From Amoebophrya sp. A120 (taxonomy: Eukaryota > Protista > Dinoflagellata), in assembly GCA_905178155.1 (NCBI GenBank), contig CAJINV010000005.1, positions 6,780,153-6,844,152 on the forward strand: a stretch of DNA of 64,000 bases, in the 5' to 3' direction. The translations under genes and the position numbers were made by a program. The first letter of the stretch is position 1. The number at the start of each line of letters is the position of its first letter. Below are positions 129 through 63,575 of this stretch, piece after piece. A model generated the notes under the pieces. It had not been told where the DNA came from and ran no database searches. It worked only from the letters and a program-made list of their open reading frames with translations.

Positions 129-3100
129 ATGTACCACCGGGGCGGAGGCGGAGCCGGTGGACCCGGCGCAGCTACTTCCCCCGAGAATTACACTGGCGCT
201 CTGCCCGACGGCAAATTTAACCTTCAAGCCGGGGGCTCGCACTCTAGTTCCTACGACCCCGATAAAAATTCGTCTCGACATAATTGCTCCCGGGCACCAG
301 ATGTTGAACTCGGGTCCGGGCAGTACCGGGATCCCGAATCGGGGGATATTGTTTACTCGCAGTCGCCACTTTGGAAGGACAAAGAGAACCACCTGCAGAG
401 CAGCACCAGCAGCTACTTCCAACTCAATTCCCGGACGGGAAGTCGGCAGCATTTGATCCTGCAGTTCCGGCAAACAACCGTGAAAGCGTTAGCAACTTTC
501 CGTGCCTGCCCGGAACTGTTCTTAACCGTCTCGCTCTTCTGCATCAGTGCGACAATTTACATTTACGTCTATTGTCTCAGTAGTTCTTCTACTTCGAGCG
601 GTTCTTCGTTGTTTTTCGCCGATGCAGATGATTATATGGGAATTGAAGCTGAATACGAAAGAACAAATAGAAGAATAACCGCCGGTGCTGCAGCTTCAAC
701 ATCTGCACAAGAAATAAATCTCGAAGATGAACTGCCTACAAAGAGGACTTCCATGACGGCACTCCCAACCACAAACATCGACCCCGCGGAGGCGGGTATC
801 ACACCTATGGACCCGAAGAAATTTTCAACTTTAAGTACGACGAGTTCCGCGACCCCGGTGGTTTTGCCGACGTCTAGGAAGGCACGGAAGGTGACGGATT
901 CTTTTCTCTCGGAGAGCTCGAAAAAGAATCACGCGGAACGACTAGCGAAATTTGGCCAGTATGTGAAAAGAAAAAATGCTTCTTCAACAACATCTTCCAA
1001 AACAACCAAGGATACAACAAAAATCACACCACCACCGCAAGCTGCCGCACCCAGCACGAAAATAGATGGCAGAATACTGAACGAGGACAAGGTGAAGAGC
1101 GCCGAGCAGGTGATTTTGACGTTGCCGATGACTATTCAGGAAAAAACCGCGTTCGAACTAGCAATAGAAATTTCGGACTACATGCAAACCAATTTCGAGG
1201 ATGAGAATGAAGAGCCAAAACCTGCAGAAGAAGCGAAAGAAGCAGCAAAAACCGCAGATGACAAAGCAACTGCGGCTGCAACTGCATCATCCACAAAAGA
1301 GCAACCTGATGAAATCAAAAGTGGAAAGAAATCAGCTGCAGATCAAGTAGATTCTGCTAATACCGCAGGGTCCTCGTTCAGGATGTCGGCCATCCTCCCC
1401 CAGCAGCTATCGCAGATCATGATCAGCAAACTGAATATGGGTTCGACATCGGTAAACAACGGTCGGGATTTTGAGCAGGAGCTGGTGATATCGTTGTCGA
1501 AACAGCAAGTGGACCAGGATTTGGATGGGAGAATAGATCTGATCGAACTAATATCAAATACAAATTATGTCATCTGGGTCTGGAAGGATGCAATGTTTGT
1601 CATGCACATTTTGCATGACTCCTGATGTCTGTGATGCATGCCCTAGCATGACAGATTTTGTGAGGGCTTCTTGATGCCTATATCGCATGAGAAATGCCCT
1701 CTCGCCCTGGCAAAAACTGGACCTCTTTTGCTGTTCATGCAATTCAGATTTTCGTAGAATTCAGACGCAGCATCACAAGTTGCATCCTTCCAGACCCAGA
1801 CAGAGACATATTTGCAATGCATAGCTAACAGATCTTTTCAAAACCACCCACGTGCCGAAAGAGAAGAACAAGGACGGTTCCGAGCATTTCAACTACGACT
1901 GCGGAATGCTCGACATTTTTGACAAACTTTCTCGGGGCGAAAGTGGGGGGCTGATCGCAGCAGAGGTGGTGGACGGGGCGTATGAGATGCTGTATGGACT
2001 CGCCAGGGATCATTCACGTATTAGTGATCTGAGTTTTTGCGTATGGCATTTTTCACCATGCTTTTCATGCATCACTGGCTTACCTTTGTCTCGCATGCCG
2101 AGCATGACAAGTTTATTCCATTACAACTAAACAAAACCAGACGACCCCCCGACCCAGACGCAGCAATACTGCCCGGACGGGCAGAACTCGGTCTACGTCT
2201 GCGATGCGGGGAACAAGTCGGGCAAATTTAACGACTTCCTCACCACGGACTTCCAGCACGAGGACAATCCCGGCGCGGAACCGCTGGAGATGGACCAGAG
2301 TCTGTTATCAAATGCAAATATGTCTGGGTCTGGAGGGTTGCAAGACTTGTCATGCAGGTTTTCCATGACGTCGCGTGAGGTCTGTCATGCATGACCTAGC
2401 ATCACGGAGTTTGTGTGACCTCTAGAGATTGTTTCTCAACAACTTGGTCAAAAGTGGACAGCTTTTGGTAATCATGCAACACAGGTTTCTGCACTATCCA
2501 GAATTGGCATGACAAGTTCCACCTTTCCAGACCCAGACATATTTGCAATGCATATCTGTGTAAGCTCTACAACTTTGCTTTCAGTTCGAACATCAAGCAG
2601 GCGACGGCGGAGCAGGTGAAGCAGGTCGGGCAAGCGTGCGAGGGTTTGATGAGTACAAGCGGGCAGAATTGCTGTCACTGGGTGCCTATCAAATGTAAAA
2701 ATGTCTGGGACTGGAAGATTGCCAGGTTTGTCATGCACATTTTGCATGACTCCTGATGTCTGTGATGCATGCCCTAGCATCACAGATTTTGTGAGGGCTT
2801 CCTGATGCCTATACCGCATGACAAATGCTCTTTCCGTGTAGCGAAACTTGGACTCTCTTTGCTGCTCATGCAATACAGATTTTTTTAGAATCCAAAATCA
2901 GGTTGACAAGTTGGATTCTTCCAGACCCAGACATTTTTACAGTTGATAGTGCCGGAAGATAAAGAGAAGAACGCGTGTCGGCCTTACTACCGGGTAAGCA
3001 CTACATTCAATTATCTGAGATTGATCTGAAAAAATGTGAATCCGAATATCATCGTACTATGATAAATCTGACTACTTACTAGACTTCTGCGAGTCCCATG

Positions 3101-3767
3101 TAAAGATCATGACAGATGTTTCAAAAAAATCATAAATGAAAAATTAAAATTCCTTAGTGTCTCCAGCCTGCACCGAAGGAACCGGAACAAGTGGAGAAGG
3201 AGAAAGAAGCAGCTGCACCAGCAGCTTCCAAGACAAGCTATCCTCAGGAAAAACGTCCCCGCCGCAGAGAGAAGCTGGAAACTTTGCAACACAAATCAAC
3301 AAGGTTTGGCTGTTGCGCATGACAGGTTCTTTGGGCTCGCGGTGTAATCCTGTGTAGCTAGTGCAGCCGCATGAGAGATCGACACCCCTATCCTGATTCT
3401 AGCATGACAAACTCCCAGATAGGAGCATTGGAAGTCGCCTGTCATGTGGCTGTGCATGAGAAACTTTTTAGGCGTGTAGATTTGCAAGACAACTTGAGGG
3501 GGCATTGTTCCTCACAATACAAGCAGTTCCTGGTTCTCCTCGAGCCAAGATGCAGACGACAAAAAATCCGCGCAACCTGCCCAATATCAAGAAGTGTACG
3601 AGGACGACACGCTGGGCGACATTGGGCCTCTGTCGCACTTCTACCAGCCCGTGAAGGTGGACACGATCCTGCCGCCCTTTGGATACAAGCAGGGGGAGAA
3701 GAAGTTCAACGTGAACGGCGTCAGCGGCTCCGGGAATCCGGACGACAAACTACCCGGGGACTTGTGA
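129..3767 (+). CDS. Multi-exon membrane-anchored protein with an EF-hand motif (4 IEs, 2 GT-AG introns)
   Basis: ORF 129-1551 has a hydrophobic segment (LFLTVSLFCISATIYIYVYCL) and an EF-hand loop DQDLDGRIDLIE. The frame continues after removing IEs 1552-1823, 2306-2554, 2687-2948 and 3239-3519 and GT-AG introns 2018-2140 and 2994-3166, to TGA at 3765-3767. Confidence 0.7.
1552..1823. mobile_element. Introner element, family A
   Basis: TIR TATCAAAT..TCTGGGTCTGGAAG / CTTCCAGACCCAGA..GCATA; DR actaa/gctaa. Confidence 0.9.
2306..2554. mobile_element. Introner element, family A
   Basis: Family A TIRs; DR tctgt. Confidence 0.92.
2687..2948. mobile_element. Introner element, family A
   Basis: Family A TIRs; DR gtgcc; interior similar to 1552-1823. 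Confidence 0.92.
3239..3519. mobile_element. Introner element, family B
   Basis: TIR TATCCTCAGGAAAAACGTCCCC, right end degenerate; DR caagc. Confidence 0.88.
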
Positions 3768-4691
3768 GTGAGTGGGAGTCTGGTGGTTGCTCGCGCGTAG
3801 TTTTCCAAGAATATTGACCACGGAGGACTAGTACACACAGAACGAGCCAAGTTTTTTTCATAGCAGTTCTCGTGAGATCATGACATTGATGTTTTCTTGT
3901 GCCAGGAAGAAGAATCTGCACCGACATTTTTAGCCGTGCCACAGCGTTAGAATTTACCTAACGAATGAACGCAAAACAAGAGACTCAATATATATCGAAA
4001 AAAGAACCTCATCAACTACAAAATTGTCCAATTATTCAACGCAAGCAAGCAAGATGATTAAGCAGAAATAATAACGCGCTCGGAATGCATTCGCAAAATA
4101 GCAGATACTACACCCAGAAACGCAAAGAATTTTTTTTCAAACGACTTTCTGTCCCGACCAAATAAATGGACCTCTCTGGCGGTTGCGGCATGTTGGTGGG
4201 AACGGCCTTGACCTCGGCCTCTTGTCCTCTCGTCCGAGTTCGTTTTCTATTAAGAAACAGGAACTATTTATACTCCTCTTCGTCATTTTTTGATCAGTGT
4301 CGTTCATGATCATCACCGTCGTGGTCGTGGATTTTCGCTCGAAAAAATAACATACCTAAAATTTGGTATGTCAGTACTAGAGGGCAAGCCGTAGTACAAC
4401 CAGCACCAGGACGAGAGATTGAGACAACACTGTAATTGTGGTTTCGTCGAGTACTTCTATGATGAGGGCTGTGCAGTTTTTTGTTGAGCGTCTGGTGCCA
4501 TGAGTGAGCGTTTTTCTTCTAGCACTTTCCATCTGATGAAAGCCCAGCTATTATCGCTTCGGCAATATGAATATACAACTTATCGCGAGATTCTCTAGGT
4601 CGAGGAAGTACAACACGACGGTAGCAGAATCATCTACAGAGCTAGGCTTTCGTTTAGTGGCGGCCGGACACCAAAAACTAAACAAAAAAGC

Positions 4692-7600
4692 ATGAGTTGT
4701 ACCAACCACGGTCACAACTCTAGCTCCTCCGGGTGGACCGGAGCGAACACGACCTCGATTGAGCAGCACAAATCCACATCCTCCTCTTCCACGGCGAACC
4801 CCAACAACCCAGATGGGTCGCACCAGCTCTCGTACCGGGGTTGCTTCGGGCTCAAAGGAGACGTCCGGAACAATGTGCACTTTTTCGAGGAGTCACAAAT
4901 CGCCTACCCGGCCGGGCACACAACCGTGCTGTATTACATGGAGCAAAAGCAGCAGCGATTTTTTCCCGGGACGGAGGGAACGGAAGAGATCACCTGCATG
5001 GCGCTCTCGCCGAATAAAAAGTACATATTTTTTATTTTGTCATGCGGCTGCTGCATCAGATGACATTTTTGTCATGCGCGCTGCTGCATATGGGTTTCTG
5101 TTTGTGATGCATTTTTACCATACCTCTACCCAGGTACCTGGCCGTCGCGGAGAAAGCGACAAACCGGCACGGTGACAAGTATCAAATGTAAAATATGTCA
5201 ATTGGGTCTAGAAACTGAAACTTGTGATGCAAGTCTGTGAACGATAACTTATCGCGATAGGTGGCCAAGCATGACAAGTTTTTGAGCTCCCCCGCCGTGT
5301 TCCGTATTCCGCATGGCAGGCTTCATTTTTGCATGACAGGCAAGAGGATCTTCTTTTCGCGGCTAAGCATCACAGACGAGGTACGAATCATGCCAGACAA
5401 GCATGACAAAATCTTCATGGACTCTTCCAGACCCAGACACATTTGCAATGCATAGCAAGCCAATAGTGACGATTTACGACCTGAATTCGCTGAGGAAAAA
5501 GAAAACCTGTTGCTACCTCGACTGCGACTCCCCAATAATAATTTCCATGGCCTTTGACCAGCACTCGAAATTGTTGTTGACGCAGATGGGGCCCAGCCCG
5601 AGTGGGAAGCACGACTACACACTGGTAGCCTGGAGCTGGGAGAAGGCCAAACCAATAGCAGCGACGAAGGTATTTCTTAGCAGTAGTTGTGGTAGCGGTA
5701 GTATGCATTGAAGAGTAACGTATCGTACTAGTATAAATCGCATGACAAATTTTCTCAACAAGGAAGCTGTAATTTGTAATGCAGATTCAGGTAGGAAAGC
5801 AGATATTTGTAAATGCATGACTGCGGTTTAAATCGTCATCCCTAATTTATTACTAGGTCGGCGCCACAGGGAACGTGTACGAGGTGTCTTTCAACCCGAT
5901 TGATTCCTATCATAAGGAAAAACGTCCCCGCCCCATAGTCAAGATGGGAAATCTGCTACACAAATCCACAACTTTTAGCTGTCACGCATGACAAGTTTGG
6001 GCTCGTAGTGTAATCCTGTTTAGCTAGTAAGGCAGCATCACAGGCCTAGCGTATCGTGCTGGTTGGAGCATGGCAAATTCCGAAACACGACTGCAAGTTG
6101 CTCCTCATGGGGCTCCGCATGAGAAATATTTTGAGCATGCAGATTTGCACTACAACTCTGGGGTGGGGACGTTTTTGCTCAGGATAATTCCACGACCTGT
6201 TTCTGTATTGGCGACAACCTGTTCAAGTTTTTCAAAATCCAAGAATCGGAGAACCTCATTCGGGCGATACCCTTATCAAATGCAAAAATGTCTGGGTCTG
6301 GAAGGTTGAGGCTTGTGATGCTAACTTTGGACTCTAAAAAAAATCTGTATTGCATGATCAGCAAGAGTAGTCTAGTTTGTGCTACGCGGGGAGAGCATTT
6401 GTCATGCGGAATAGGCATCCGGAAGCCCTCTAAAAATCTGTGGCGCTAGGTCATGCATTACAGACATCCTGGGTCATGCAAAATATGCATGACAAGCCCG
6501 GCAACATTCCAGACCCAGACGTATTTGCATTCGATAACCCTACCAACTGAACAAGCTGAAAGGCGGAAGTCAGAATTATTTGTGCCATACCTGGCTGCCA
6601 GACGACCGGTTGGTAGTAGGGACAGAAGGCGGTGAGCTGTTGCTATTTGACAATCAAGGGGAGTTTCTGGAGGTACTTATGATCTATGAATACATCAAAC
6701 AAAAAAAACAAAACTTTGTCGTTGAGTTAGTGCTGGTTAATACTTTTGTGATGTTTTGTTACATCAAGGAAACGAGTGCGCAGGACAGTTCTCGACGTCG
6801 TGGATGATGCATGCAAAGTCATTTCATGCAGCATGAGAAACAAAAACTCAAACTCACACTCAAACACAGGTCGTCTCCAAATCTGAGCCCCGGTCTCTGC
6901 AGTGCATTGGCGCCTTCGGAAAGGGTTTCGTCACCGGCGGCGATATTGAAGCGGAATCCCTCGGCTTGGGCACGAATATCATGAGAAAAAAGTGTGACAG
7001 TTACACTCTCTGATGGAAGACAAACACGACAGACAACCTCTGTCATGCAGGAAATGCTTGCCAGCCTCATGTCATTCGTGTTTTCCCTTATTTTATAGTC
7101 TGCGCATCACAGGTTTTCTTTGCCATGTCGAGCAATTTTGTGATGCAGAAACTCCAACGAGTCTGTAACTGTAACACTTTTTTCCTGTGATACCGAAGAT
7201 CAACGGGTTACTCCAAGTGTACGAGAAGGTGGATGAGAAGTCTTTCCACAAAGCAAAGGAATCGGAACTGGACGGCGGCGGGATCCGGTCCATAGCGATA
7301 AGTCCCAGCGACGAGGCGCTGTGTGTTACGACAACGACGTCGCAGTTGTATAAGCTGTCACTAGTTTCGTCGGAACTGCTGAACGAGGAGGACAAAACAG
7401 GGAAGTCGTTGTTTGAACCCGTTCTCACTCCCTTCCACAACGGGGCAATCAACGGCATGGACGTCTGTTCCACGAGGAAGTCGATGGTGGTGACTTGCGG
7501 CACGGATAAGACCGTCCGGGTGTGGAACTGCGCGGAGAAGATGTGCGAATTTTCGAAGCAATTCACCGAAGAACCTCTATCAGTGACCTTGCACCCCACC

Positions 7601-10600
7601 GGGTTTCTGATGGTTTTGGGGTTTGCGGACAAGCTGCGAGCGATGAACCTGCTCATGGACGATTTGAAGACGTTTAAGGAGGTAAATAGGACTAATTTGC
7701 TTGCAATAATATGACGCATGAGAAACTCAGTTGTTTCCCTGTTGCGAACTGCATCACAAATTGAACAAATGCATTTTGTTACATACATGCAGCGCTGCAT
7801 CGCAAAATATATGAAAATAATCACTCAAAGCTCCCCGTGAAAGCCTGCCGCGAAGTACAGTTCTCCCACGGCGGGCAGTATTTCGCCGCGGTAAACGGCA
7901 CGGTGCTTCAAGTCTACCACACCTACACCTGCGAACTGCTCTGCAGTTTCCACGGGTCTTTGTCCCGCCTCCGGACCATCACGTGGTCACAGGACGACAA
8001 CTTTCTCGCCACCGGCTCGGTGGACGGGTCGATTGTCGAGTGGAATCTGCAAACCCAGACGAAAGTCATGGAGTACAACACGAAGGGCGTTTCCTACTCC
8101 TCCATACTGTTGATCACAAACTTGGTGCAGCCAGCCAATCCAACCGGCGGCACGTCGGCGCAGGCGGCGGGGAGCGCGGGACAGGGCAACAACAGCGCAA
8201 ACAACCAAAACAACCCGAATTTGCCCATGCTTAAGCAGAACAGCATCTTTGCGTGCGGCTCGGACCGGATGCTGAAGGAGATAAAATCTTCCAATCTCCA
8301 ATCCTACGTCGATTGCGGGGTTACTCTCGGACAACTCGCGTCGTATGCATTGCAAAAGTATCGTACTCGTATAAATGCATTACAAATCTCCTCAGCATGA
8401 GAAATATAATTTGCAATGCGGATTTAGCTTTAGAAAAAAATTTGTAATGCATGACTGCAATTACTACGAGCGCGATACTTTTGCACAGGATACGTCGGCA
8501 GAAAACGCGATCTTCGCCGCCATCGCAGAACCCGAATCGAAATCCGCCCCGATGCGGATTATGCATTGCAAATATGTCTGGGTCTGGACCTGTGATGCAG
8601 AACTTCAACGACAACAAGATCTGTAATGCATGAATACCATTGGCCAGTTTTTTTGTCGTGCTGGATTGCAGTTTGTAATGCTAAACACGAATGAATCGGC
8701 AAGGAGCCGAGGGAAATTTCTCATGCTTTTTTGCCGTACAAGCAGCAAGTTTGCAATGCAAGGATCAGCAACACAAGTTTCCAGACCCAGACATATTTGC
8801 AGTGCATACGGATCTACAGAATACCCATCGGCGGGAACGTCTCGGCCCTGAACCAGCAGCAGCTCCCAGGCGACAGCAGTGGTAGCATCATGCAGAATAT
8901 CCTGTGCAAAAGTATTGTATTCGTATAAATGCATTACAAATTTCCTCAGCATGAGAAATAAAGTTTGTAATGCTGCCTTACCTTTAAGAAAAAGATTTGC
9001 AATGCGTGATTGCAATACACTTTTGCACGGGATATAGAACTATTCAGCGCACTCCGCCCCGGCAACGCGACTTCGCTTGTCCTACGACGAGTCGTTGCTT
9101 TTCAGTTCCGCGGAAGATGGGTGTCTGTTCATGTTCGAGATAAAAAGGAAAGGCGCGGCGAAGAAAAAGCGGCTGCAGGAGATGGATTTTGGTCTGCAGC
9201 AGGGGGTCAGCGACGAAATTCTGGTGACGAGGCACTTTTTGGAAAACAAGCAGAAGCAGGTGTCGGTGTTGGAGAAACAGGTTGAGGATCTACTGAACCA
9301 GATCGAATTTCAGCTCTCCCACCGCGATTCATTTCACAAGGAAAAGATGAACGAGTTAGAAGACAGATACGGGCAAGAGATAGAAGCGGAGCGGGCGAAG
9401 TACGACGCTTTGCAGCAAGAGAAAGCAGAAATGGACAGCGAGTATGAGGACCACATCCTGCAAATGGAGGAATTGCACCAACGGAATCTACAGGAACTGG
9501 AATGTACTATTTTTATTTAAACACGTTAAATTTGAATGATTATGTTTATGATTTCTTGATGTTGCCCCCGCCTACTTTGCAGATTTTTACGCCTCAACAG
9601 TTAGACATCTTTTATTTCCACATCGTAACAGCTTCCTTCCAGCAGAAGATGCAAGTGGAGGCCAACCGGTTTGAGAAACTGACGCAGCAAAGGGAAAAAG
9701 AGTCGCTCATCTGGGACCAGACAGTGAAAGAGCTGATAATACAATGAAAAATGCCCCCACCCCCGAATTTGCAAAAGTTTGTCATGCAAAGTTTCCAAAT
9801 GAAAGCTTTTTGTGTTGCATGAAGGGACTGCGAGCCTTTCTGATGCAGAATCTAGGTGCGCAAGGTGTCTTGTGCATAACAGATCCGGCTGCTGTGGGGC
9901 TCCTTGGCAACACAAATTTGAGCTATTCACCATGGAAAATTTGTGATGCTGAGACATGCAAGACGGGGAACGTTTCCATTGGAAAGGTTTGCTATACAAA
10001 TGCTGCCAAGTTCTGGGAGGGGGGCATTTTTCATTGTAATAGCTGACGGAAGCGCACAACAAACGGTTGGAAACGGATAGCAAGGCCTTGGAGGTGATGC
10101 TGGTGGAGGATTCCCTAACAAGACAACGAATCATGAGCGAGAAAGTGGACGAGGAAAAGAAGCATCGGGAAAAATTGGCGCAGTTAGAATTCGACGCGGA
10201 CGGGGAGATCGACACGTTGAAGGATAAGTACGAATACCGATTAGCGCAGGAAAAGGACGAGAAGGTGAGGCTCCGGGTATCGAAAGGAAAAATCCCCCCT
10301 CCCCATACCAAAACGGGATAATTCTGGATATTTGTTATGCTGATTTGAGGTTACAAATCGTCTCTGTATTGCAAGAAAGCAAATCCAAAACCCCGCCGCG
10401 TTCTGCAGGCAGTTTGTAATGCTGTATGTACTACGGAGGACACGCCTGCCTTGCTGGCGCCTACACCAAAGCGCCCCTACTCCGGCTTTGTGTGTGCCTG
10501 CAGTCTTCTACTGCAAGACAAAGCCGATTTGTGTACACAAATCCCGCATCACAGATTTCAATTTCGATATGGGGAGGGGGGATTTTTCCTTTTGATACCG

Positions 10601-21154: not shown

Positions 21155-22636
21155 GGGAACAGTGGTTCAGTGAGATCGTAGTTCATCTCAAGAACAGTAA
21201 CCAGACTTGTAGCAGCGGTGTCGCTGTACCAATTTGTAGTTCCTGGAGTACTACACCTACTAGTAGCTCCTGTATCACCAAGTCCAAGGGCACTTGTAAA
21301 AAGACCGTAATCTACAAAAACTACAAAGGTGGAAACTCACGATAATGACGAAATGACCACGCAGCCTCTGATGTACCATAGCAAAAATCAGCTAGTACTG
21401 ATGCGGGTTTTCTGAAGTTGTTCTATTGATAGGACGATCAGATACTTCTACAGCTTGTTGCTCCTGCGTCGTGATAAGACGATGAAGCCTTTTTTACCTG
21501 AACCTATTTCCTATACACATTATCCACCTCCACGTCCACCTAAGATACGGCGAGGGTGGATCGAGTAGAAATAAACCCATTGGGGTTGATTTGAATTTAG
21601 CAGAAACTATAAGTACAATACCCAGATTGTGATTGATTTGAATTTAGCAGAAAAGTTGTACCAAAGAAGTCCACATTAGTTGTACTCTTCGCAAACTGAT
21701 GTGATAGGTACGACCACCTCCTCCAGAATTTAGTATGATTTGAATGGTTGACTGAATTCGAATGCAGAGCCTTGATTGTATTTTGTATTTACGCATCCAT
21801 TAGCATTATGCAAGAAAAATCTGCAGAATGTACCTATAGAAAGAGTCGTGTGTTTGAGTTTCTTTGTTCGGAAGATGAATCGAGCTCCACCAGCGGAAAA
21901 AAACTACTACACGACTAGCGGATGAAGATATTGCAGAATTTCCGTACAACATAAAAACTTTCTACCAAGAAGGTCTGACTGAGTTCGAGACGCCTTGCTA
22001 GTTTTCTTCGAGCAGAGCGAAGGAGGAAAAAGAGGTGTAAGTAGTGTTCTTTGATCCATCCGCCTCGGATGGTGACCTCGACCTCGTTGTAGAGCGATTG
22101 CTGAAGTCGAGGGGTGACTTTTCTTTGTTTGGAGTGAAGGACGAGTTCGAGAAACAACTGAGCGGGTAGACCCGAACGCGAATCGTAGTCGATTGTAGTT
22201 GTCGTTCTTGCGGTTACTAGGTTTTTATTGACCCACCGCCCTGAATTTGTCTTCTTCTTCGTAAAGCAGCCGATCGTCGATAGAGCGCGGTTGTGTCGTT
22301 TTTCTTTGATACGTCGTAGCGTCGTTTCATCATGTTATGCCCTCGCGCAGCGGCAACGAACTGTCTGCAGTTTCTTGCAGTGGTTCTTGTATACGCGCAC
22401 CAGGACTCGTAGCACGACATTTAAGTACATCATCGCTAGGACGATTTTTTTCAGTGTGACCACCTCGAAGACGGGAAGTAGATAAGTTCTGGGTCGCACC
22501 GGGCCACACCAGTCATTTGTCTTCCCATGGTCTATGCCATGATGTTGAAGCTACGGCCTATACGGCCGTAATGAAACTTTCTGGGAGGCGAATTCTGAAG
22601 TATAACCACGAATAGTAAAGCAACAAAATCTTCAAG

Positions 22637-47260: not shown

Positions 47261-47607
47261 TAGGATTGATAAATTTGTAAGAAATCGAATTTCACCCCCG
47301 GCGATTTTCAAATGCAATTTCAAATCCAATCCACTTCACTTCGGGGGGTGGTGGTTGGCGGTGGCCTCTTCGCATGTGGCTCACTAGACCGGGGCAGGGA
47401 ACGACGCAACGCTATGCACCACGGGCACGCGACTACCAAATGCCAGCGTGGACGCCAATCCGGGCAGGAGCACATGCCCACTAATCCACACCTATCGCTA
47501 CACAAGAGCAGCGGCCACTGGCTCCACAACTGCGACCAGTCGCAGAAACGCGCTCGGCAAAAACTTGATGATTGAAACTTCAAGAACGATGTTGTTGATC
47601 CCACAAC

Positions 47608-49895: not shown

Positions 49896-50481
49896 TGCAT
49901 CCTTGCACTTGCGCATCCTGCTTCAACGATCATAGTAATAAGATAATCACAAGATCTTCGAGCACATTGCAGAGAGTTGTTTCTCCGTCTTGTTGCAAAG
50001 TACAAGGTAAATAAACCGGCAAGTTCCTAAATCGTAAAACCGAAAACCTTGCGCTCTTTGCCATCGTTGGCCTGACTAAGCCCCGCCGCGGGACGAGTGT
50101 TGTTGCCTCTGAGAAAGAACCGACAATGACCGCGCCATCACTTCTACCATAAACGCAACAGGAGCGAGAAGTATACATTTATCAACTTGTAAGAATTTCA
50201 TCGATTTCGTTTCTGTAGACGTAGGTGAAGTTTTTGTCTTCTAGTTGAAGTAAAGTCGATATACCACGCCAGCCCACGGCCAAGACCGACGACCTATACG
50301 GCTGAGACCTAGTTTGTTATCTTAGAGTAAGCGGTATTAACACAATCACAAACTTTCATTTCATTTGATCGAGGCGCGACCGAGTGCAGACGCAGAGATT
50401 TTCAGGTGGTCCAGAAGTAGCTCGTTGCATTTTTGTTCTAGCCACCGCGAAAAACAAAACAACTAAAAAAAGGTCTAGATC

Positions 50482-53336: not shown

Positions 53337-54843
53337 ACAGTGCAACCGTGGTGGCGCTGCCGGGGACAGATCTCCCTCGTTGCTGTCACTATACATAATC
53401 TCGCAGCGGGGGCGCGCTCATTTTTCAACATATGATTTTGATATTGATCTAAGTATTTATCTTTAGCATTGGCTTTGCCACCCAGTGGAGGTAAAAGATT
53501 CAGTTTGTAGAATTAGAGCTCGAACCAGAACTTATGGCACACTGGCACTCACATAAAAGGTGAAAAGTTCACGTGGATCATGATTTATGTGATATCGAGA
53601 GGTTCTACTTTCGCATTTCATTTGGAGACCCCCAGTGTTTGGAGACCTCCAGCAGGGTATTGTAGGATTGTAGCGGTCAATGTCAATCTTCGTGTAGGTA
53701 TAAAAAAGTGTAAAATAAGTAGCATCAGATTCAGACATTGAAGGACTAGTTTATGTTTAACTGCTTTCATGCCAAAACCGATTTTGTTTCTGTTTCATAT
53801 TCCTCTACTTCGGAGGCAATACAAACTAACACATTGCTAATGCCGAGTTTCTTTACGCATACGCACGGTTTGCGGGTGTGCCCTGCTCGGCGTTTCTGTT
53901 TCTCTAGCGCGAAACCGCATCATTTCGTCGCAGATTGATTTCATGTCGCAAAAGATCCATGTGAATGTGAAGACGGAGAAACAAGGTGGATAATCGTGTA
54001 ACATACCCGCTCGGAAAAGGCGTATTGCGCGTTCCAAGGGAATATTGAGACTCAAAGACACTGACAATTTTCCTGTTCATTCATGAAGGATGAAGAAAAA
54101 TTCGATCACCAGATCAGAAACACAGATACGTGGTCCATGATCAATGAATCTTCCTGAAGTAGATCAAGACGCTTGGCCCGAATAATCTTCTGAGGTTGTG
54201 TATCTCTTTCCACCTATAAGCATACTTTTTGAACAGGATCCAGCTTCACCCAGAGGATCTTTTTGCAGAAATAAAGATCTGGAAGTGGAAGAGAAATTTG
54301 AAGCCGATCTCAGGGAAGATCGAGATGAAGTAAATCGACGAAATTCGAACGGTCGTCGAAATGTTGAGTACTAAAAGCCGTGCTGCCATAGGGAGTGGTT
54401 TCTCTAAGCAGTTTGTGGCTCGATCGTGTGCATTTCATCATTCCTCGTCTGTGAATACAAGTGAGTAGAATAAAAAACACCGATCGGTTGCTTGTTCAAT
54501 GTACTCAAGTTGACGCAGGAGCTTTTATTTCGGGTAAAAACTACAGGAAGCACTTGATTTCTGTCTCCACATCGAATCTTTCCACGCCGTCGTGGAAGAC
54601 GAAAAATCATTTCAACTGCATCTAGTGTGGCTTATTTCAATCGTAACTGTTCTTTTCATATTCATTGTTTGAGCATTGATTCCCACGTGAACCAACTTGG
54701 TAAAGATTTGCGGCACTTGAACGTTTTATCTCTTGCTTTTTCAAAAAACATACTCGCCTTACTTGTTCTAGTAACTTTCAACTTCAACTATACAGAAAAG
54801 TTCGCCACTGTGGTTAACATCTTTGCAGCTGTGTACAAAAAGC

Positions 54844-57800
54844 ATGAAGCAACAACAGCAGCGAACCTCGCTCCGGGCCGCTGCTGGTCCTCGGTTTCGG
54901 CTGCCTCTACTGGTTAATATCCTACCGTTGCAACCGCTTTTATTTAACAGCTTGTTGCTTCTAGGATCGTCATGCGTTGTACAGTTTTTTCTACCCAGCG
55001 CCGTGGAGGTTTCCGCATCCCATGTTCGGCGTCGTTCTCGAGAGGCCGATTATAGTCTTTCTGAAACATCAGAAGAAGACTCTGAGCAAGAAGAAGACTA
55101 CTCCTCTTCCGGCTCGGAAGACGACGGGGAGTACTATCGTCAGGTGGTCCGCGCAATTTCTTCCAGGGACATCGGTAGACAACCACTATCCCTCGTTCTC
55201 ACGCGGAGGAATTTGCAGCCAGGGGTAGTTCTTCCGGGGGCACAGCAGCTCGCCCCAAGTCCACCGTCTTCTTCTTCTTCTAGCGGTTTGGTCAGCAGCG
55301 TGCCTGAGGACCACTACTACAGCGACGGGAGCGGTCCAGTCCGTAGCGTGCCCGAGGACCACTACAGCGAGGGCGGGGAGCAACGTAGTACTGATAGGAG
55401 CGAAAGCGAATTGTATACTGGTTCTACTTCGAGCGAAGAAGGTCGGAGTCGGAGTCGCAGTAAGTCGTTTTCATCCACTACTAGTCGGGATAGAAGCCAT
55501 CGTCGGGGACGAGGTCGGAGTGGAAGTGGTAGTCGAGCCTCAAGTCGTAGAGCCCGTAGCGCTTCGTCTGGTCGTCGTTATACGAGCCGACAGCGTGGGG
55601 ATGAAATAAGAAAATCGAAATCCGCACCTCGTACTACTAGTACCCCCGCCGCGCCAGCCATGATCGTCTCCGCTCCTGGGACGATGATTCTCCAGGGAAC
55701 TACACAGGATCAGTATCAACAACCGCACACTGGACCAGGGCACCAGGTCTTGGGTTTCCCGGATAATTTGAATTTTTTCCCGGTGCAAGTTTCCAAGTTC
55801 CTCACCAAAAACGAGAATAAAGAGTTCTGCAACGGTTTGAACGGAGTCGACGGGGGTGCCTTTTTGCAGCGTAAGCTGTCGCACGAACAGGAAATTGAAG
55901 TGAACTATGGGCTGGTCCGGCATTTGGTACAAATCCAGCACGACCCGTTTGGCGCGTTGCTCGGAGCCCATCGGGCGGAAGAGTTCCTTCGGAACGAGGA
56001 AAAAGCGATTGCCAATAATTACTACAATGCTCAGGCTGCGCACCTGTTTCGCTTTCTGCGCGACCGAGATTTGGTGAGAGGACAGGGGAACCCTCGTCAA
56101 AGCGGGGGGCACAGAAATACTGCGAGGAAGAAGATCATGAAGAGGATTCGGGCAAGATACACGTCACTTTTGGAGAATGTCCGGAACCAGTGGGAGTGGC
56201 GTCTGCTGGAGTCCAGCAAGAACAACAACTCCCGTCGCTCTACCAGGGTGGAATTGTTGCAGCGCTTCCGGTCCCGGGAGCGAAATTTGCAACACCGGCA
56301 TGCTCGGTGTTTGCACAAGGATAACCCGGGTGGGCGAACAAAATACTCGAGCTGGTGGTTTCAGTCCCAAAAATTTTCACATGCGCGAACTGTACAAGAA
56401 CTGATCATGTCAGAAGTTGCGAATCCGGCGGATGAAGGGGATAGAATCAGGTTCAAAGAAGATAACATGCTGTGGCTACCGGCTTTTCTTTTGCCGCGGA
56501 TCAGCCATGCGGCGTGGACCGACATGCTGTTACCAGGACCACGACAGGAAGATGCGGCGAGGTGGTCTCCTACTCTTGGTACTACTAGTACTACACCGCT
56601 AGGTGAAGACCACTTCTATCAGGGAACTACAAAAACGTCTGAGTACGACGCTTTTTGCGCCCAACTGTTTGACGCATTCTCGGCGCACAAGCAACACGAC
56701 GAGGAACAAGAAAAGCTCCTGGCCGACGCCTTTGCGTCTTCGCTGACGTTATCACCAGCATCATATCCTGCGTGGTCATCTGCACATCAGGAAATAAGAA
56801 CACCGCAAAGCTCTTCCACGTGGAGGTCCGGCTTTGTTGGTACTGGCGCAGCTGCCAGCTCGACTGCAGGAGCGGGCCCAAGGAACAATAATTCCACTGC
56901 TCCACAACATGCCGGAGTACAACATAACCTTAACCCGCAAGAACATCAAGAAGTGGAACAAGTTCTTCCGACGGTGCTGCAATTTTGCAGGAGCAAGAAC
57001 AAGTTCACAACCAGGACTACACCCCGGCAGCAGCAAGATGACAAACTCGCACTGGTCGAGAACAAGGCAAAAAAACACCTGGCAAAGCGTTTGAGACACT
57101 ATAACTCGCCGATGGATCCCCAACTGCTTTGGGTACATCTGAAAGACGAATACAAATTCCAGCTTGCCGCGCTGTATGACTCCCAGCCGGTGGTGCTGCA
57201 GGATTTTTTCTTCACGGCCCTAACGTCGTTGAAGGTTGCTGCGGCCCCAGGCGGTCCTGATGATCGTCCTGATTTAAGTTCTTTTCATTTCCTCGAACAG
57301 ATTCGAGAATTACTTTCGCTGGAGGACTATGGATTGTAAAAATGTCTGGGTCTGGAAGAATTCATGTTTGTCATGCTTGTCTGGCCCGACTCTTAAATCT
57401 GTCACGCACGTTACCCAAGAGCTTCGTTTTTCTGTGATGCAGAAGCGCAGTCTGTCATGCAGAATAGGCAACACCTAGGAGCTCAGAAACTTGCCATGCT
57501 GAGCCAGCATTTGTAGCCTCATCATGAGACGCCACCCAGCATCACAAGTCCCTAGACCCAGACATTTTTACATTTGATAAGGACGAGAATAGTTGGACAG
57601 TGCAGGCTCAGATTTTCGACGTGGACTATTCGAGTGAAGAACCTATTGCCGAGCAAACAATTGAGCTTCAAGATGTAGTTGTACGAGAGGACTTGTTCTC
57701 AATCCAGCAGGACCACGAGCAGAAGTTCATGCCAGGAAGAGCCAAGAAGAGCATGCCACTGAAAAAGCTAAATGAATCAAAATCTCGCGACGCTCTCTTA

Positions 57801-59079
57801 CTCCTGTTGCAGAGCCATGTTGCTTCCTCGACGTTTTTTCCAAACGGTGATGAGTGGGCTGTGCGGCACGGGGAGAACTCAGACAAAATCTTCGTCGTGG
57901 GTGAGTTTGACAGTGAATTGACCATTGACCAGGAAGTTTCGCCGGCCCCACCACGGTATCAATTGTAAAAATGTCTGGGTCTGGAGGCTTGCAACCTGTG
58001 ATGCGCATTTCAGACCACAGGAAAATCTCTCATGCATGGAAAGCAAAAGTTGCCCATATCTTGTAACCAAAACAGCCGATCTGTCATGCGGATCAGGCAT
58101 TGAGAAGCTGTCGTAAGATTTGTGATGCTAGACCCGTATTCTAGACCAACCTTCTGGGGCAACCAGAACCTGCATGACAAACTTCTGCACTCTACTTCCA
58201 GACCCAGACATATTTGCATTTGATACACGGGTTCTGAGAAGGGGGGAATCAAGAGGACGAACAATACGGCGGAACTTTCAGGTATGGCGTTCTCAAACGT
58301 TACATTCTCAACTGTTACATGATTTGTCATGCAAAATGATCATCAAGATCCACACTATCAAGCTGCTTCGCATGACAAATTTGCGAATGGCTAAACAGCG
58401 CCCAAATCTGTTCGGAATTTGTAATGCTACAGATGCAACCTCCCTCCTTTCACTTTTCCCATTCTTGCATGACAAATCCATGTAACACTTGAGAATGTAA
58501 CAGTTGAGAACGCCATATCAGGTTGGCTACGAGTTCCGGGTTGAGGAGTACGTACCGCTTCCAGGGTCGTTTTTCGATAAACCAGAACGGGAAGAGGATT
58601 TTTATCATGGTGAAACACGAAGAACGGTACCACTAAAGGGACCACCACCACCATCATCACTACCAGCATCATCTTCCCGACAACATCAAGAACCGGCAAT
58701 ATTAAGCAATCGACTTCGTTTCGAGAACCGCTTGAAAAAGGAGGAGGCCGCGGCCCAAAGCATCGCCAATCGGACCAAGTTCGCGGCAATGCACTTCACA
58801 CTGACGCTGGTCGACTGGAAGGACCTTGCGAACGCGGGGTTCGACATTCGGTCCTGGACAAACGCAGATTTCGATTTTGACCGTCGTCGTCGTGGAGGTC
58901 ATAGTTCCAACGCGAGGTGGGACGATGAAACAGGTGGCGTTCATCGTGGTAAAAAAATTTTCGACGGCTGGACCGTGATCGGAAGTGACGAATACGACTA
59001 TGATCAGCGTAGAAGGAATTTACCGCACGGGCCGAGGTTGTATTTCCGTCTCGTCTTCAAACCGCCGGCCGGCAACTAG
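54844..59079 (+). CDS. Putative secreted protein, family member 2 (3 IEs)
   Basis: ATG at 54844, hydrophobic N-terminus and an RS-rich region. The frame is restored across 3 IEs to TAG at 59077-59079. Homologous to 42155-47260. Confidence 0.72.
57328..57579. mobile_element. Introner element, family A
   Basis: Family A TIRs; DR aggac. Confidence 0.92.
57957..58225. mobile_element. Introner element, family A
   Basis: Family A TIRs; DR cacgg; interior similar to 52321-52608. Confidence 0.92.
58283..58517. mobile_element. Introner element, family F
   Basis: TATGGCGTTCTCAAACGTTACATTCTCAA / TTGAGAATGTAACAGTTGAGAACGCCATA; DR tcagg. Confidence 0.92.
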
Positions 59080-60818
59080 TCGAGCCTCGTTCATAATATT
59101 AGCACCTGGGAAGATCGCAGGAGCAAATTTTTTGAAGGACGGTGATCTAGCGAAAGTGATTAGCAGATAGTATCGTGTTCAGAACTTGAATTTTTACAGA
59201 AGAAAAAGCAAGAACTCACTCCTTGTTGTATTATCTATCATGTTTTGCAGAAAGAACTCACTCGGCGCACGAGCGCCAGCTTGTACAAGTAGCTCTTTCT
59301 GCTTCCTGCGGAGATCTTAGGAAGTCCTGCAGAGATGTAGTTTTTTTCAATTTACCATATTTTTAACTCTTCTTTTGAACAACTACTATCTTCATCTTGC
59401 CGCCGAGCGGCATTCGCTTTCACGATTATGCTATGGCCCTGACGGAAAGGACTATCAGAGGGAAGTGTGCTGCTGCAGAACATGCCCGGAGAGGGGCTTC
59501 ATCGTGTGCACAGCGTGCAGTAGGCTCGTAGAACTCATTTATAATGAAATAGCACTAAAGCAGGTAATATGCAAGAAGTACTTCATTTTTGGATCGAAAA
59601 GATTCCTCTAAAGCCAGCCCTTAGAGAGACTTGACTGAAAATTATTCAAGAAACAAGGACATTCGAACTAAAAAGATCTAGTCTGACATGCGAAATATCA
59701 TGTACAATGAACGCCTTTTTTTTTGTATGATGAAAGAAAGTCTGCCGCGTTTTTTTCGTTTTCGGCAAGACCGATGCACGTAGTACTACGTACCTCAAAG
59801 AAGCGCAGCTGACAATCTAGGTGAAGCAAGAGCTGCAGAAGCAAAAAAAAATGTCATAACAGACCGTGATATTCACGAAAGAGTTATTCTCGTCTATACC
59901 GTCATTCTCATTCATTAAATTTCAAGTAATCTTCACGGAGGTTCGCGTTTACCTCGTGAACAACGGATGACGAAAGAGATTGTTGACGAACTGCAATTTT
60001 TGCATTCAGTCAAGAACCATTAAGCAATGGCTGTACAATGCTATCGTGGTGTGCAATACAAGAAATCGCTCGTAAGTCTTGAAGTTGTCAAGAATTATCG
60101 TGGGAAATGCCTGTCGTATACAAGAACGACGTCCGTGATTTATGCTGAGATTTTTAGGATCCTAGGCTGTCTTGTTTTCCATGTGGTCGTGGCGGTCGTG
60201 ACTCTGACTACTGTACATCCATTCCAATGCGGAAGCTGCTCGTCCCGTCTGTCGGTCCCAAGTCAATTTCATCGTAGGTCCTCTCGTAGGTGTGATCTGG
60301 TATTGTCTGCTCCACCGTCGTCAAAACTTTCCTTGTCGTGCTGGTCCAGTAGTACAATCTTTTCCATAAATCGTGGCTCCGTAGTACGTATCTATAGATA
60401 CCGGTTTTCAAGAACACTTTGGTGAAAGCGAAAAAAGTGGAAGCATGTCATCTTCTCTATCTTCGTGGAATCTATTTCGTTTTCGTGAAGTAACATTGGT
60501 GCGGCCAGTCGTTTTACTTAATCCGCGGCACTACATCAACTACAACAACTCGTAGGCTTCAATTGTTGTATCTGCCTTTGCTATAAATCTAAATGAGTCG
60601 TGCTGTAAGAACTGAAAACATCTTAAGCAGGTTTTTTTTTCGAATGGGGACGAACAGGGTAGTTGTGCGCAGTTTTTTTCTTTTGTAATCTAGGAAACAC
60701 TTTTTCAAACCAGAAATCAAATCCGACGTGTCGCGTTGTACCGCCCAACTTCGTCAGCACAACACTGCCATCATCTACTTTCGAATCTTCAGAGAGTCCC
60801 TGCTGACACAGAAACAAG

Positions 60819-63575
60819 ATGACGAAGTTTATCATGTGTAAAAATTCCGCTATCCTCTCGTGCGCAGCTCTCCTGGCCGCTGCTTTCCAGGTGGAGCAAC
60901 AAGTAAGTCCTGTCGTAGGCCTCGGCACAGTGAAGCAGCAATCCCTTCTCCGCCGCCGCGGGAACAGCAGGAGAACGAAAAAGGAGGTAGAAAACAAGCA
61001 TGTAGATGCTGCAAGAACTTTATCTTCCGAAGAGGGAGCGAGGGCGGATGGTACAGAAGGAACATCACTTTCATTCCCCCGGGCGAGCAACTTGTTGCAG
61101 AAGAAAGCGACTGTGTCGGCGCAGCACAACGCTGGGCTGCTGACCAAAGGGCCGCTCACATTGGTCCGAGACGAGGAAGAGGACCTTGGTGTTTCTCATG
61201 CTGTCCAACACGCACAAGAGGTGGACGGTGCAGCAGATCGAAAGGTGGGCACGGGCACGGCGGAGAAATTGAATTGGGAGGACAAAGACACCGATCTGAA
61301 AGCGGTTGTTCGCAACACCACCGATGTTCATGACGGAGATCTCGTGTCCTCCTTTTCGTCTACAACGATGGAGACCTCCGCGAAACTACAGGAGAAGAAA
61401 AGCCAGATGTTGACCACGACGACGGCGAGAAAAAACCAACTCGGCTTCCACATGTACTCCCAGCGGTTTCAAAATCGCATGCGACTCTCCTTTTCCCTCA
61501 ACCTGTTCGAAAACGGGATTGAGGGGGTGGCGGAGAGGATGGGGAACGTGGCGCGGATGTTCACTGACCCAGGGGAAGCGATCAACGAGATGAAAGAGTA
61601 CGTCTTTCAACAACTGGAGAAAGTGGCGAAGCAGGTGTCTGAAATGGGGTTTTCCAACCTGATTTGGAAGTTGGTCGAGTTGGTCATTTATCCTGTGCAA
61701 AAGTATCGTACTCGTATTGCAATCGTGCATTACAATTTTTTTTCTCAACGTAAATCCGCATTACAAATTTCATTTCTCATGCTGAGCTAATTTGTAATGC
61801 ATTTATACGAATACGATACTTTTGCAATGCATATCATTGGCGGCGATAAAGTCGACATGCTGAAGCCGTTTCTAGTGCAGTGTGCGGATAAATTTCGCAC
61901 TCTGTTGAGTCAGATCATGGGCAGTACCACGTCGCAGGCGCTGGATGGGTTGATGGCAGGTGGAACTAGTACATCTGGAACAAGTACTACGGAAGACGAG
62001 GAAATGGAAAATGAAGACGGCAGCAGTAGTACAAGCTCTAGCAGTTCCTCTTTTGCACAAAAAAGTAGAAAGACGACCACGAGCAGCAAAATGCGTTTTT
62101 TCAAGGCGAAATTGTTATCTTCCGGAAACAACGCCAACGACAAAATTATGCAGAACAAGGTCGCCCCTTCGGAGGTTTCCGGCGCGTTTTCGTCGCTTTT
62201 CAAGATGGAGCTGTTCACGGCGGATGGCTTCTTGAAAGCGTTCAAGGATCTGGTAAGTCACGTGAAGGAAATGATCAAAAGCCAGTTCATGCCGGACGTT
62301 TTTACCGCGTCCCTCACAACCTATGAGAGTGCACAACTCCACCCCCTCCCGCTCATTCGCATTGCATGAACGGCAATACAAACACCAGCACACGTGGAGC
62401 CTGCGCATGACAAATTCATGCGCCTAGTCGTGTAGCACTGTTTGGACTTCCTGAATCTGTCATGCAAACAAGGCCGCAGGGAAGCCCTTGGATTTGGGCT
62501 TTTGCATGACAAATGAGGGGGAGGGGGAGTTGTGCACTTTCATATCACCTTCCTGCATTCCATCGGCGAAATGGTCACGGAGTTTATCACCGAGAACATG
62601 GGAAAGTATGCAATGCAAAAGCATCGTACTCGTAGTAATTGCAAACATGCATTACAGATCTTGTTCCCAAGCTAGATCCGCATTACAAATTTTATTTCTC
62701 ATGCTGAGGAAATTTGTAATGCAATTTATACGAATACGATACTTTTGCAATGCATAGAAAGCCCTTTGACACCATTGTCGCTGCGGGGAAGAAGTTACAG
62801 TCGGACTTCAACAATTTCGTCGGGGGCTTACAAGACGGACTCGACCAGGTGGGGGAGCAGTTCGAGGACTTCGCGGACAACGTCGGCAATGCCGCAAAGG
62901 ACGTCGGCAACCGCATGACAGACGCAGCGAACGATGTGAAGAGTGGCTTCAAAGACGCGGCCAGTGCCATGAAAGACAGCATGCAGGAGGGCTGGGATTA
63001 TGCATTGCAAATATGTCTGGGTCTGGGAGATTGCGAGATTTGTCATGCTAGTGTAAGTAGCATGACTCTGAACTTTGTATTGCGCGGCCGCGAAGAGCTC
63101 TTCTTGCCTGTCATGCAAGAACGCAGTTGGTCATTCGGAGTACGCAACTCAGAACCACGGAATAAAAACTTGTCATGCTCGGCAGCGCATTAGAGTGTGC
63201 TCACTATTTCCTTTCTTGCATCACAAGTTTATTCCAGACCCAGACATACTTGCAATGCATAGGGATCGCCTCTCCTGGTCCCGACGACGTGGCAGATCCA
63301 GTAGTTTTCTGCTACGAGGGATGAAAAGTTTTGCTCCTTTCGATACGGTTGTTCTGGACCACCACCCTGAAACCGTGATGTCTGGCGCTTCTTCTCCCCT
63401 CGAAGATGGCGACGACGACGACGACGACCAAGGAGTTTCGTTTTTCGAGCGAAAAGTGAAACATTTCGAGGCGAAATACTTGGCCGCGGTGAAGAACGGC
63501 ACTACGTCAGTTCTCGCTGGTGCTGCCCCTGCGACGTTACAAACGGCGACCCCCGTTACCGTCCTCGCACGATAA
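60819..63575 (+). CDS. Putative secreted protein with LEA/apolipoprotein-like amphipathic repeats (4 IEs)
   Basis: Signal-like SAILSCAALLAAAF and ~11-aa repeats FADNVGNAAKD-VGNRMTDAAND-VKSGFKDAASA. The exon segments join across 4 IEs. Confidence 0.7.
61689..61833. mobile_element. Introner element, family D
   Basis: Family D TIRs; DR tcatt. Confidence 0.92.
62322..62544. mobile_element. Introner element, family C
   Basis: Family C TIRs; DR caacc/tcacc. Confidence 0.88.
62607..62756. mobile_element. Introner element, family D
   Basis: Family D TIRs; DR gaaag. Confidence 0.92.
62999..63261. mobile_element. Introner element, family A
   Basis: Family A TIRs; DR gggat. Confidence 0.92.

What the first reader, a model, noticed from the sequence alone, without database searches (positions are those of the whole stretch)
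2018..63261. One internal motif (TGTVATGC / GCATBACA) is repeated through all IE families and also through ordinary GT-AG introns
Seen: families with unrelated TIRs and interiors all carry several copies of TGT(C/A/G)ATGC or its reverse complement, roughly every 15-40 bp (about 8 near-matches in 20860-21110). The same motif sits in canonical introns (about 2102, 5038, 5070, 5103, 7751, 24632, 26424, 26459, 26736, 27323, 27355). It looks scarce in exons, the LINE and intergenic DNA. Inference: a motif conserved while the surrounding sequence diverges suggests a shared intron-definition code. It could be a binding site for a host or transposase-derived factor, or self-pairing units that fold the intron into a hairpin bringing the ends together. 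This is the best candidate here for an undescribed mechanism.
Basis: partly seen in the sequence, partly recalled or inferred. Interest (0 to 1): 0.85.

Follow-up and report, generated by a model that had tools for sequence, protein, structure and literature searches.

The report
Helically phased DNA motif marking introns
In a parasitic dinoflagellate whose genes are full of transposon-derived introns, one 12-base motif fills those introns and most ordinary introns on either strand and, inside the transposon-derived ones, repeats in step with the DNA helix, so it is likely a set of binding sites for a DNA-binding protein that would mark introns on the DNA rather than on the RNA.

Summary
The window is Amoebophrya DNA with A120-type introner elements (IEs). 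Of 161 exact TGTVATGC/GCATBACA hits, 156 lie in introns: 140 in 48 IEs (shuffles 3.0), 15 in 16 GT-AG introns (0.58) and 1 in a LINE-bearing intron; exons have 1, the LINE 0, intergenic DNA 4. The full motif is about RYYT(G/C)(T/C)V(A/T)TGCD. Its core is more conserved (4.3% deviation) than the spacers (22%) or the TIRs (9%). New here: across 31 IE clusters, motif copies are spaced with a 10.3-10.5 bp period, favouring 31 bp, whichever strand they lie on, and not with the 11 bp of RNA helices. In GT-AG introns the motif occurs on either strand (4 introns plus only, 5 minus only), 32-36 bp apart. The hairpin reading fails as a general rule. Best reading: an array of sites for a double-stranded-DNA-binding protein, kept by selection in place and likely serving intron recognition. 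The main rival is transposase subterminal repeats, with the GT-AG introns being aged IEs (2 of 16 clearly are). No protein is identified and no RNA evidence was obtained. The scan's notes showed no earlier report of this motif.

The parts
1552..63261 (.). IE group A (TIR with GTCTGGGTCTGG, 249-288 bp), 18 copies: 1552-1823, 2306-2554, 2687-2948, 5180-5454, 6274-6536, 8560-8808, 15890-16143, 16883-17159, 20526-20795, 20860-21110, 27766-28024, 42839-43120, 43541-43828, 45389-45639, 52321-52608, 57328-57579, 57957-58225, 62999-63261; 1-5 exact motif copies each; two main subfamilies, inserted in both orientations
3239..44390 (.). IE group B (about 280 bp): 3239-3520, 5908-6186, 15522-15803, 44112-44390; all motif copies of an element lie on one strand (three elements minus, one plus)
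6977..28904 (.). IE group C (211-216 bp): 6977-7192, 16324-16534, 27502-27713, 28694-28904; two copies carry variant motifs only
8344..62756 (.). IE group D (137-168 bp): 8344-8492, 8898-9034, 19976-20142, 25550-25717, 25760-25908, 28287-28437, 36106-36272, 43299-43455, 43871-44024, 44912-45049, 61689-61833, 62607-62756; motif layout minus, minus, plus, plus
9740..62544 (.). IE group E (223-320 bp): 9740-10038, 10278-10597, 10642-10865, 20262-20496, 62322-62544
10946..58517 (.). IE group F (235-259 bp): 10946-11180, 16601-16835, 23892-24134, 46736-46994, 58283-58517; layout mostly plus, minus, plus, minus
2018..2140 (+). GT-AG intron, one strong minus-strand copy (2102)
5021..5133 (+). GT-AG intron, three plus-strand copies (5038, 5070, 5103), 32 and 33 bp apart; no IE homology beyond the motif
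5670..5856 (+). GT-AG intron holding a decayed group D element (left TIR kept, right TIR lost), two copies
6673..6869 (+). GT-AG intron, one minus-strand variant copy
7682..7830 (+). GT-AG intron, three minus-strand copies, 35 and 46 bp apart
11623..15293 (+). GT-AG intron hosting a LINE (ORF 11657-15013, motif-free); one plus-strand copy at 15221 in the remainder
22794..22986 (+). GT-AG intron, one plus-strand variant copy
23685..23807 (+). GT-AG intron made almost wholly of a group D interior, both TIRs largely lost, three copies
24534..24694 (+). GT-AG intron, one plus-strand copy (24632)
26391..26493 (+). GT-AG intron, two minus-strand copies (26424, 26459), 35 bp apart
26663..26777 (+). 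GT-AG intron, two minus-strand copies, 36 bp apart; weak similarity to one D-like element
27285..27407 (+). GT-AG intron, two plus-strand copies (27323, 27355), 32 bp apart
2994..27094 (+). GT-AG introns without a strong copy: 2994-3157, 9504-9631, 11293-11460, 25236-25382, 26976-27094 (two of them hold a bare 8-mer with poor flanks)
4692..17240 (+). Host gene A, WD40 plus coiled-coil protein (CFAP57/WDR65-like, name recalled), 16 IEs and 7 GT-AG introns
22637..29027 (+). Host gene B, paralogue of A, 7 IEs and 8 GT-AG introns

Best explanation
The motif is a roughly 12-bp sequence repeated two to six times inside introner elements and one to three times in most GT-AG introns, on either strand and (within introners) on one face of the DNA helix, and it is likely the binding site of a host double-stranded-DNA-binding protein that would mark introns on the DNA and help their removal during transcription. 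Shown: intron restriction, strand symmetry, strong conservation, 10.3-10.5 bp phasing with a preferred 31-bp step, outer copies mostly 35-54 bp from the element ends, and retention in TIR-less introns. Inferred: a protein binds the sites as an array and bends or wraps the DNA; selection acts after insertion; introners spread because they carry the host's mark together with a TIR hairpin that sets the cut sites; the mark feeds into splicing in a lineage where U1 snRNA was not found. The protein is unidentified. I put about 0.8 on DNA-level protein binding and 0.45 on the splicing-related host role.
For: Intron restriction. Motif core 4.3% deviation against 22.1% in spacers and 9.1% in TIRs over 66 elements; the same with consensus-defined sites and window-only copies. 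Private substitutions at otherwise invariant columns: core 22 of 1,037, spacer 38 of 808, TIR 40 of 1,684, p=0.002 core against spacer. Period 10.4 (same strand), 10.3 (convergent), 10.5 (divergent), p<=0.01 against 300 jittered layouts; pooled 10.3, score 0.39 against -0.07 at 11.0, holding in window-only copies and when any TIR group is left out. In the 9 motif-bearing GT-AG introns not derived from group D, 4 carry plus copies only and 5 minus copies only, and 6 of 7 adjacent gaps are 30-37 bp, p=1e-4. Only 2 of the 11 GT-AG introns with strong copies match a sampled IE family clearly, although singleton clusters are only 15 of 125 elements. Farhat 2021 reports U1 undetected, no transposase found in A120, and that most position-conserved introns are canonical.
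Against: No protein, binding or splicing data. 5 of 16 GT-AG introns lack a strong copy and one intron holds 3.4 kb of motif-free LINE, so the motif is not obligatory. Gaps in GT-AG introns (32, 33, 35, 46, 35, 36, 32) are longer than 31 and not strictly in phase. Intron 23685-23807 shows that an IE can lose both TIRs while its interior is still close to the family, so some GT-AG introns may be recent remnants of unsampled families; 26663 scores above its control (53 against 39). Private changes include those that arose in unsampled active ancestors. Four small TIR groups are not significant for phasing on their own (p 0.06-0.19). I could not test whether introns shared with other strains carry the motif.
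Confidence: 0.45

Rival explanations
1. The copies are subterminal binding sites for the mobilising enzyme only. A multimeric transposase or integrase wraps the short element through phased sites, and motif-bearing GT-AG introns are aged introners in which the sites linger.
For: All groups share TAT...ATA ends and a 5-bp duplication (34 of 48 perfect, 10 with one mismatch), suggesting one enzyme class. A motif variant sits in the TIR tip of many A and D copies. Outer copies lie at a similar distance from the ends. Two GT-AG introns are group D remnants. Hermes binds interspersed subterminal repeats of both orientations through several BED domains (PMC10368747, passages). An integrase-like candidate family is reported for A120 (PMC12130899, passages).
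Against: 9 TIR-less introns, unlike each other and unlike sampled families, keep high-scoring copies at about three-turn spacing; neutral decay that erases the spacers should also erase 7-base cores. Copy-private changes avoid the core as much as the TIR. No transposase was found in A120 by Farhat 2021.
Confidence: 0.25
2. The array is a host chromatin signal with no direct part in splicing: it organises DNA packaging or protects transcribed genes, as PATCs do in C. elegans introns, and introns are simply where a gene has room for it.
For: Phasing and strand symmetry; confinement to gene bodies; copies avoid the first and last 18-27 bases of GT-AG introns; PATCs are a transposon-derived, helically periodic precedent (10.64898/2026.08.08.743475, abstract; PMC4947018, listing).
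Against: The motif has near-invariant bases (G and C about 1-2% deviation), unlike a mechanical A-tract signal; AA/TT shows no 10-bp autocorrelation in the elements; long intron-poor exons do without it.
Confidence: 0.17
3. The motif works on RNA: opposite copies pair to fold the intron, or an RNA-binding protein or snRNA reads it (either strand contains a branch-point-like U-N-A-Y).
For: 88 of 217 copies pair in register in predicted folds, and interiors of groups C, D and F often fold better than shuffles (z down to -8.3). In 7 of 11 GT-AG introns the last copy lies 27-35 nt from the 3' end.
Against: Group B and 9 GT-AG introns have single-strand arrays; GT-AG introns have z of -2.2 to +1.4; variable positions are not complementary between partners; the period is 10.3, not 11; both strands are used equally in immobile introns; one motif-free intron has a perfect TACTAAC of its own.
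Confidence: 0.1

Closest known systems
Amoebophrya A120 introner elements / non-canonical introns (Farhat et al. 2021, PMC7789003; Gozashti et al. 2025, PMC12130899)
   Same: TAT-starting inverted repeats with an A run, short direct repeats, many families, about 150-330 bp, no fixed splice dinucleotides; window proteins are closest to Amoebophrya.
   Different: The passages, sections and supplement parts I read describe ends and hairpins only; no shared internal motif, no helical phasing and no sharing with canonical introns is mentioned.
Subterminal repeats of TIR transposons (Hermes and other hAT elements; PMC10368747)
   Same: Short motif repeated in both orientations inside the ends and also within the TIR, more conserved than the spacers.
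   Different: Here the motif is 12 bp, fills the whole element, is shared by groups with different TIR bodies, is helically phased, and persists in TIR-less spliceosomal introns. The 5-bp duplication and TAT ends do not fit hAT (8 bp, recalled).
PATCs of C. elegans (PMC4947018; bioRxiv 10.64898/2026.08.08.743475)
   Same: Non-coding, helically periodic, transposon-derived DNA feature co-opted by the host (abstract); their intronic location is recalled.
   Different: PATCs are long A/T-cluster tracts acting mechanically; this is a specific motif with invariant bases and a three-turn step in introns of 100-350 bp.
Euglenid nonconventional introns (review PMC11282704)
   Same: TIR-bearing, non-canonical junctions, ends brought together by RNA pairing.
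   Different: Their conserved signal is terminal and RNA-paired; this motif is internal, strand-symmetric and mostly unpaired.
ApiAP2-type TGCATGCA element of apicomplexans (recalled; listing only)
   Same: Shares the ATGCA/TGCAT core and an alveolate context.
   Different: Palindromic octamer known from upstream regions; this motif is asymmetric, longer and depleted from intergenic DNA. No test of relationship was possible.

Membership tests
Amoebophrya A120-type introner elements | Inverted repeats starting with TAT, then variable bases, then an A run | tested here: met
Amoebophrya A120-type introner elements | Short direct repeat at the boundaries, removal restoring the reading frame | tested here: met
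   5-bp duplication in 44 of 48 with at most one mismatch; stop-free frames after removal in genes A and B
Amoebophrya A120-type introner elements | Removal seen in RNA | not tested
   No reads were obtained; inferred from homologous proteins P0001 and P0002
Transposase subterminal repeats | Repeated short motif in both orientations near the ends, conserved above spacers | tested here: met
Transposase subterminal repeats | Confined to the elements of the transposon family | tested here: not met
   9 TIR-less GT-AG introns carry it, 8 with little or no family homology beyond the motif
Transposase subterminal repeats | Bound by a cognate transposase and needed for transposition | not testable with these tools
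   No autonomous element found in the window or by the collection scans
PATC-like periodic intronic DNA | Helical periodicity | tested here: met
   10.3-10.5 bp in IEs; looser in GT-AG introns
PATC-like periodic intronic DNA | Periodic A/T clusters carrying the signal | tested here: not met
   AA/TT autocorrelation flat
RNA hairpin-forming repeat | Opposite copies pair, with complementary variable positions | tested here: not met
   88 of 217 pair; 28 of 91 complementary against 40% expected
IES-like or loop-constrained elements | Element lengths periodic at about 10 bp | tested here: not met
   p 0.56-0.96

The most novel reading that the evidence does not exclude
This lineage defines introns on the DNA. 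A sequence-specific protein coats each intron on one face of the helix and hands its position to a spliceosome that lacks U1, so splice-site sequence becomes dispensable. Any small transposon that acquires the phased array plus a terminal hairpin is spliced in either orientation, which would explain the invasion by tens of thousands of non-canonical introns.
Probability: 0.3. Interest if true: 0.93.

Novelty: new variant of a known kind. Interest (0 to 1): 0.78.

Why it matters
How Amoebophrya removes more than 60% of its introns without GT-AG ends or a detectable U1 snRNA is an open question (PMC7789003). A single conserved motif shared by introner families and ordinary introns gives a concrete bait for finding the factor, and its helical phasing says to look on DNA, not RNA. 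If it serves splicing, it would be a DNA-encoded intron mark. If it serves transposition, it points to the missing mobilising enzyme and shows introners turning into canonical introns. In either case it is a practical feature for predicting introns in these genomes.

Tried and rejected
Hairpin by motif pairing: rejected as a general rule. Helical quantisation of element or intron length, which looked plausible by eye: not supported. Periodic AA/TT signal: none. Canonical introns as a family of their own: no mutual similarity beyond the motif, apart from the two group D remnants. Adenine methylation target: weakened because TGTVTTGC, without the ApT, is a common variant (32 intron hits). Known RNA families: none in 7 sources at gathering threshold. 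Search for other organisms with the array: of 117 metagenome loci (12 of 64 parts scanned), 24 match the window's IE families and nearly all the rest are tandem repeats; none of 15 viral loci matches. TIR or motif-pair patterns in viral and prokaryote collections gave 9 loci, all short chance-level matches. De novo calling of GT-AG introns in the metagenome loci was ambiguous and was not counted. 20 of 145 candidate elements were dropped for lack of a 4-of-5 duplication before clustering. No long element with these ends was found in the window.
Full report
Identity of the window. An exon at 7196-7681 matches proteins of Amoebophrya sp. A25 (72%) and of a second Amoebophrya transcriptome (73%), then drops to under 60%. 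Genes are interrupted by 137-320 bp elements that begin TAT, end ATA, carry inverted repeats of about 28 bp and a 5-bp duplication. This fits the A120-type introner elements of Farhat et al. 2021 (PMC7789003; abstract, passages, sections 12 and 16, supplement parts 3 and 4 and a term search of it). I annotated 48 elements in six end groups, 16 GT-AG introns and one more GT-AG intron that hosts a LINE. In the two CFAP57-like genes (name recalled), removing each element with one duplication and each GT-AG intron yields stop-free frames, 71% and 38% identical to P0002. Exon limits in five poorly conserved genes are approximate. No RNA reads were available, so splicing is inferred from frames and homologues.

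The observation. There are 161 exact hits, 84 plus and 77 minus. Elements hold 140 (12.6 per kb; shuffle mean 3.0), GT-AG introns 15 (6.5 per kb; 0.58), the LINE-host intron 1, exons 1 in 29 kb, the LINE none, intergenic DNA 4 in 17.9 kb. Flanks and tolerated variants give about RYYT(G/C)(T/C)V(A/T)TGCD; T is avoided at V (2 hits against 36-77 for the other bases) and C at D. A profile built from elements alone finds strong copies in 11 of 16 GT-AG introns.

More sequence. A scan of metagenome contigs for three spaced copies returned 117 loci from 12 of 64 parts; 24 of them (132 kb) share the window's element families and nearly all others are tandem repeats. After a duplication filter (125 of 145 kept) the elements form 31 clusters, 28 with an exact copy. 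The scan selected for one subfamily and one triple of sites; those sites were masked or left out, clusters were weighted equally in the spacing tests, and the main results were repeated on window copies alone.

Conservation. In the three largest clusters (66 elements) the seven core positions deviate from the majority in 4.3% of cells, spacers in 22.1%, TIRs in 9.1%; consensus-defined sites give the same picture. At otherwise invariant columns, copy-private changes are 2.1% in the core, 2.4% in TIRs and 4.7% in spacers (p=0.002). This suggests selection continuing in individual copies, with the caveat that private changes include the history of unsampled active ancestors.

Geometry. Same-strand spacing peaks at 31 bp; 29% of pairs fall at 30-36 bp against 8% for random placement. 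Treated as a periodic signal, same-strand, convergent and divergent pairs peak at 10.4, 10.3 and 10.5 bp with mutually consistent phases (p<=0.01); the same-strand signal remains, at 10.7, when the 28-37 bp peak is removed. With one fitted offset of 0.8 bp, all pairs pooled peak at 10.3 (0.39; -0.07 at 11.0; null maximum 0.19); this holds for window copies alone and when any end group is omitted, and groups A-D are each significant while four smaller groups are not. Copies therefore sit on one face of B-form or wrapped DNA regardless of strand. About two thirds of outermost copies lie 35-54 bp from an end. Element lengths are not periodic. In GT-AG introns not derived from elements, gaps are 32, 33, 35, 46, 35, 36 and 32 bp: clustered near three turns (p=1e-4) but looser and longer than in elements.

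RNA or DNA. TIRs pair well in predicted folds (mean 0.87), which fits the published hairpin. Motifs do not need to: 88 of 217 pair with an opposite copy, group B has none to pair with, GT-AG introns fold like shuffles, and variable positions of outermost opposite copies are complementary in 28 of 91 cases against 40% expected. In immobile GT-AG introns, four carry plus copies only and five minus copies only, which a single-strand RNA reader would not give.

Transposon relic or host signal. Two GT-AG introns are group D remnants (nhmmer E 4e-22 and 1e-17); the others score at or near controls that keep the motifs and shuffle the rest, with 26663 the clearest excess. About 12% of elements belong to singleton clusters, so recent conversions should mostly match a sampled family, yet only 2 of 11 do. 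Older remnants whose spacers are unrecognisable should have lost their cores unless selected. This favours a function in place. Against it, 23685-23807 shows rapid TIR loss, five introns lack a strong copy, and I could not test introns shared between strains.

Mechanism. I commit to an array of sites for a host DNA-binding protein that marks introns and aids their co-transcriptional removal (0.45), ahead of transposase-only subterminal repeats (0.25), a chromatin role apart from splicing (0.17) and an RNA role (0.1). The first three share the DNA-level reading. The link to splicing rests on intron restriction and on the reported absence of U1; it is untested.

Prior work. I found no mention of an internal motif in the parts of PMC7789003 I read, in passages of PMC12130899 (with 12 of 14 supplementary files searched for the two 8-mers and one table part read), PMC9860276, PMC11282704, PMC12005148 or PMC11453091 (passages), or in the listings of nine literature searches. 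Figures (including Farhat's Figs 3, 4, S19 and S25), two supplementary files and Roy et al. 2023 were not seen and could show it. For analogues I saw passages of PMC10368747, the abstract of 10.64898/2026.08.08.743475 and the listing of PMC4947018. The scan's own notes held nothing for this genome or sequence and four unrelated reports on other dinoflagellate or protist introns.

Verdict. The feature is real and far beyond chance. The elements are known; the shared, helically phased motif appears undescribed. Interest 0.78.

Noticed in passing
window, whole: All 48 elements lie in coding regions (29 kb) and none in 17.9 kb of intergenic DNA; about 1e-10 under uniform insertion, given approximate gene limits.
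   Followed up: partly
window 23685-23807 and 5670-5856: Group D elements caught turning into, or lodged in, GT-AG introns: interiors kept, one or both TIRs lost.
   Followed up: yes
window 11657-15135: LINE with a 1,118-codon open frame inserted in a GT-AG intron of gene A, flanked by a duplication of about 15 bp.
   Followed up: partly
window 38431-39450 and 40716: ORF 38437-39048 with an SLRRGA...GDW motif resembling a tyrosine recombinase (recalled; no Pfam hit), flanked by repeats of about 50 bp and with a third partial copy; possibly a DIRS-like element.
   Followed up: partly
window 48300-49085, minus strand: 261-codon ORF with no Pfam hit and an IQVK motif suggestive of a PD-(D/E)xK nuclease (recalled); it lies between two copies of a roughly 50-bp repeat at 47607 and 49842.
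   Followed up: partly
window 49622-49841: Likely GT-AG intron outside my gene models; it contains the strong 'intergenic' motif copy at 49730.
   Followed up: no
element ends, positions 4-9: These positions vary among a small set of forms shared across groups and often differ between the two ends of one copy, while TAT and the following A run are fixed.
   Followed up: no
window 2994-3157 and 26976-27094: The only two GT-AG introns starting GTAAG both lack a strong motif; one has a perfect TACTAAC. Motif use may be inverse to splice-signal strength (n=2).
   Followed up: partly
window 4692-17240 and 22637-29027: Two paralogous CFAP57-like genes 5 kb apart; by eye they share no intron position.
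   Followed up: partly
L005:4426-4770, L018:3730-, L027:2740-3040: Further element families with other TIR bodies that also carry the motif; they were missed by my detector and not counted.
   Followed up: no
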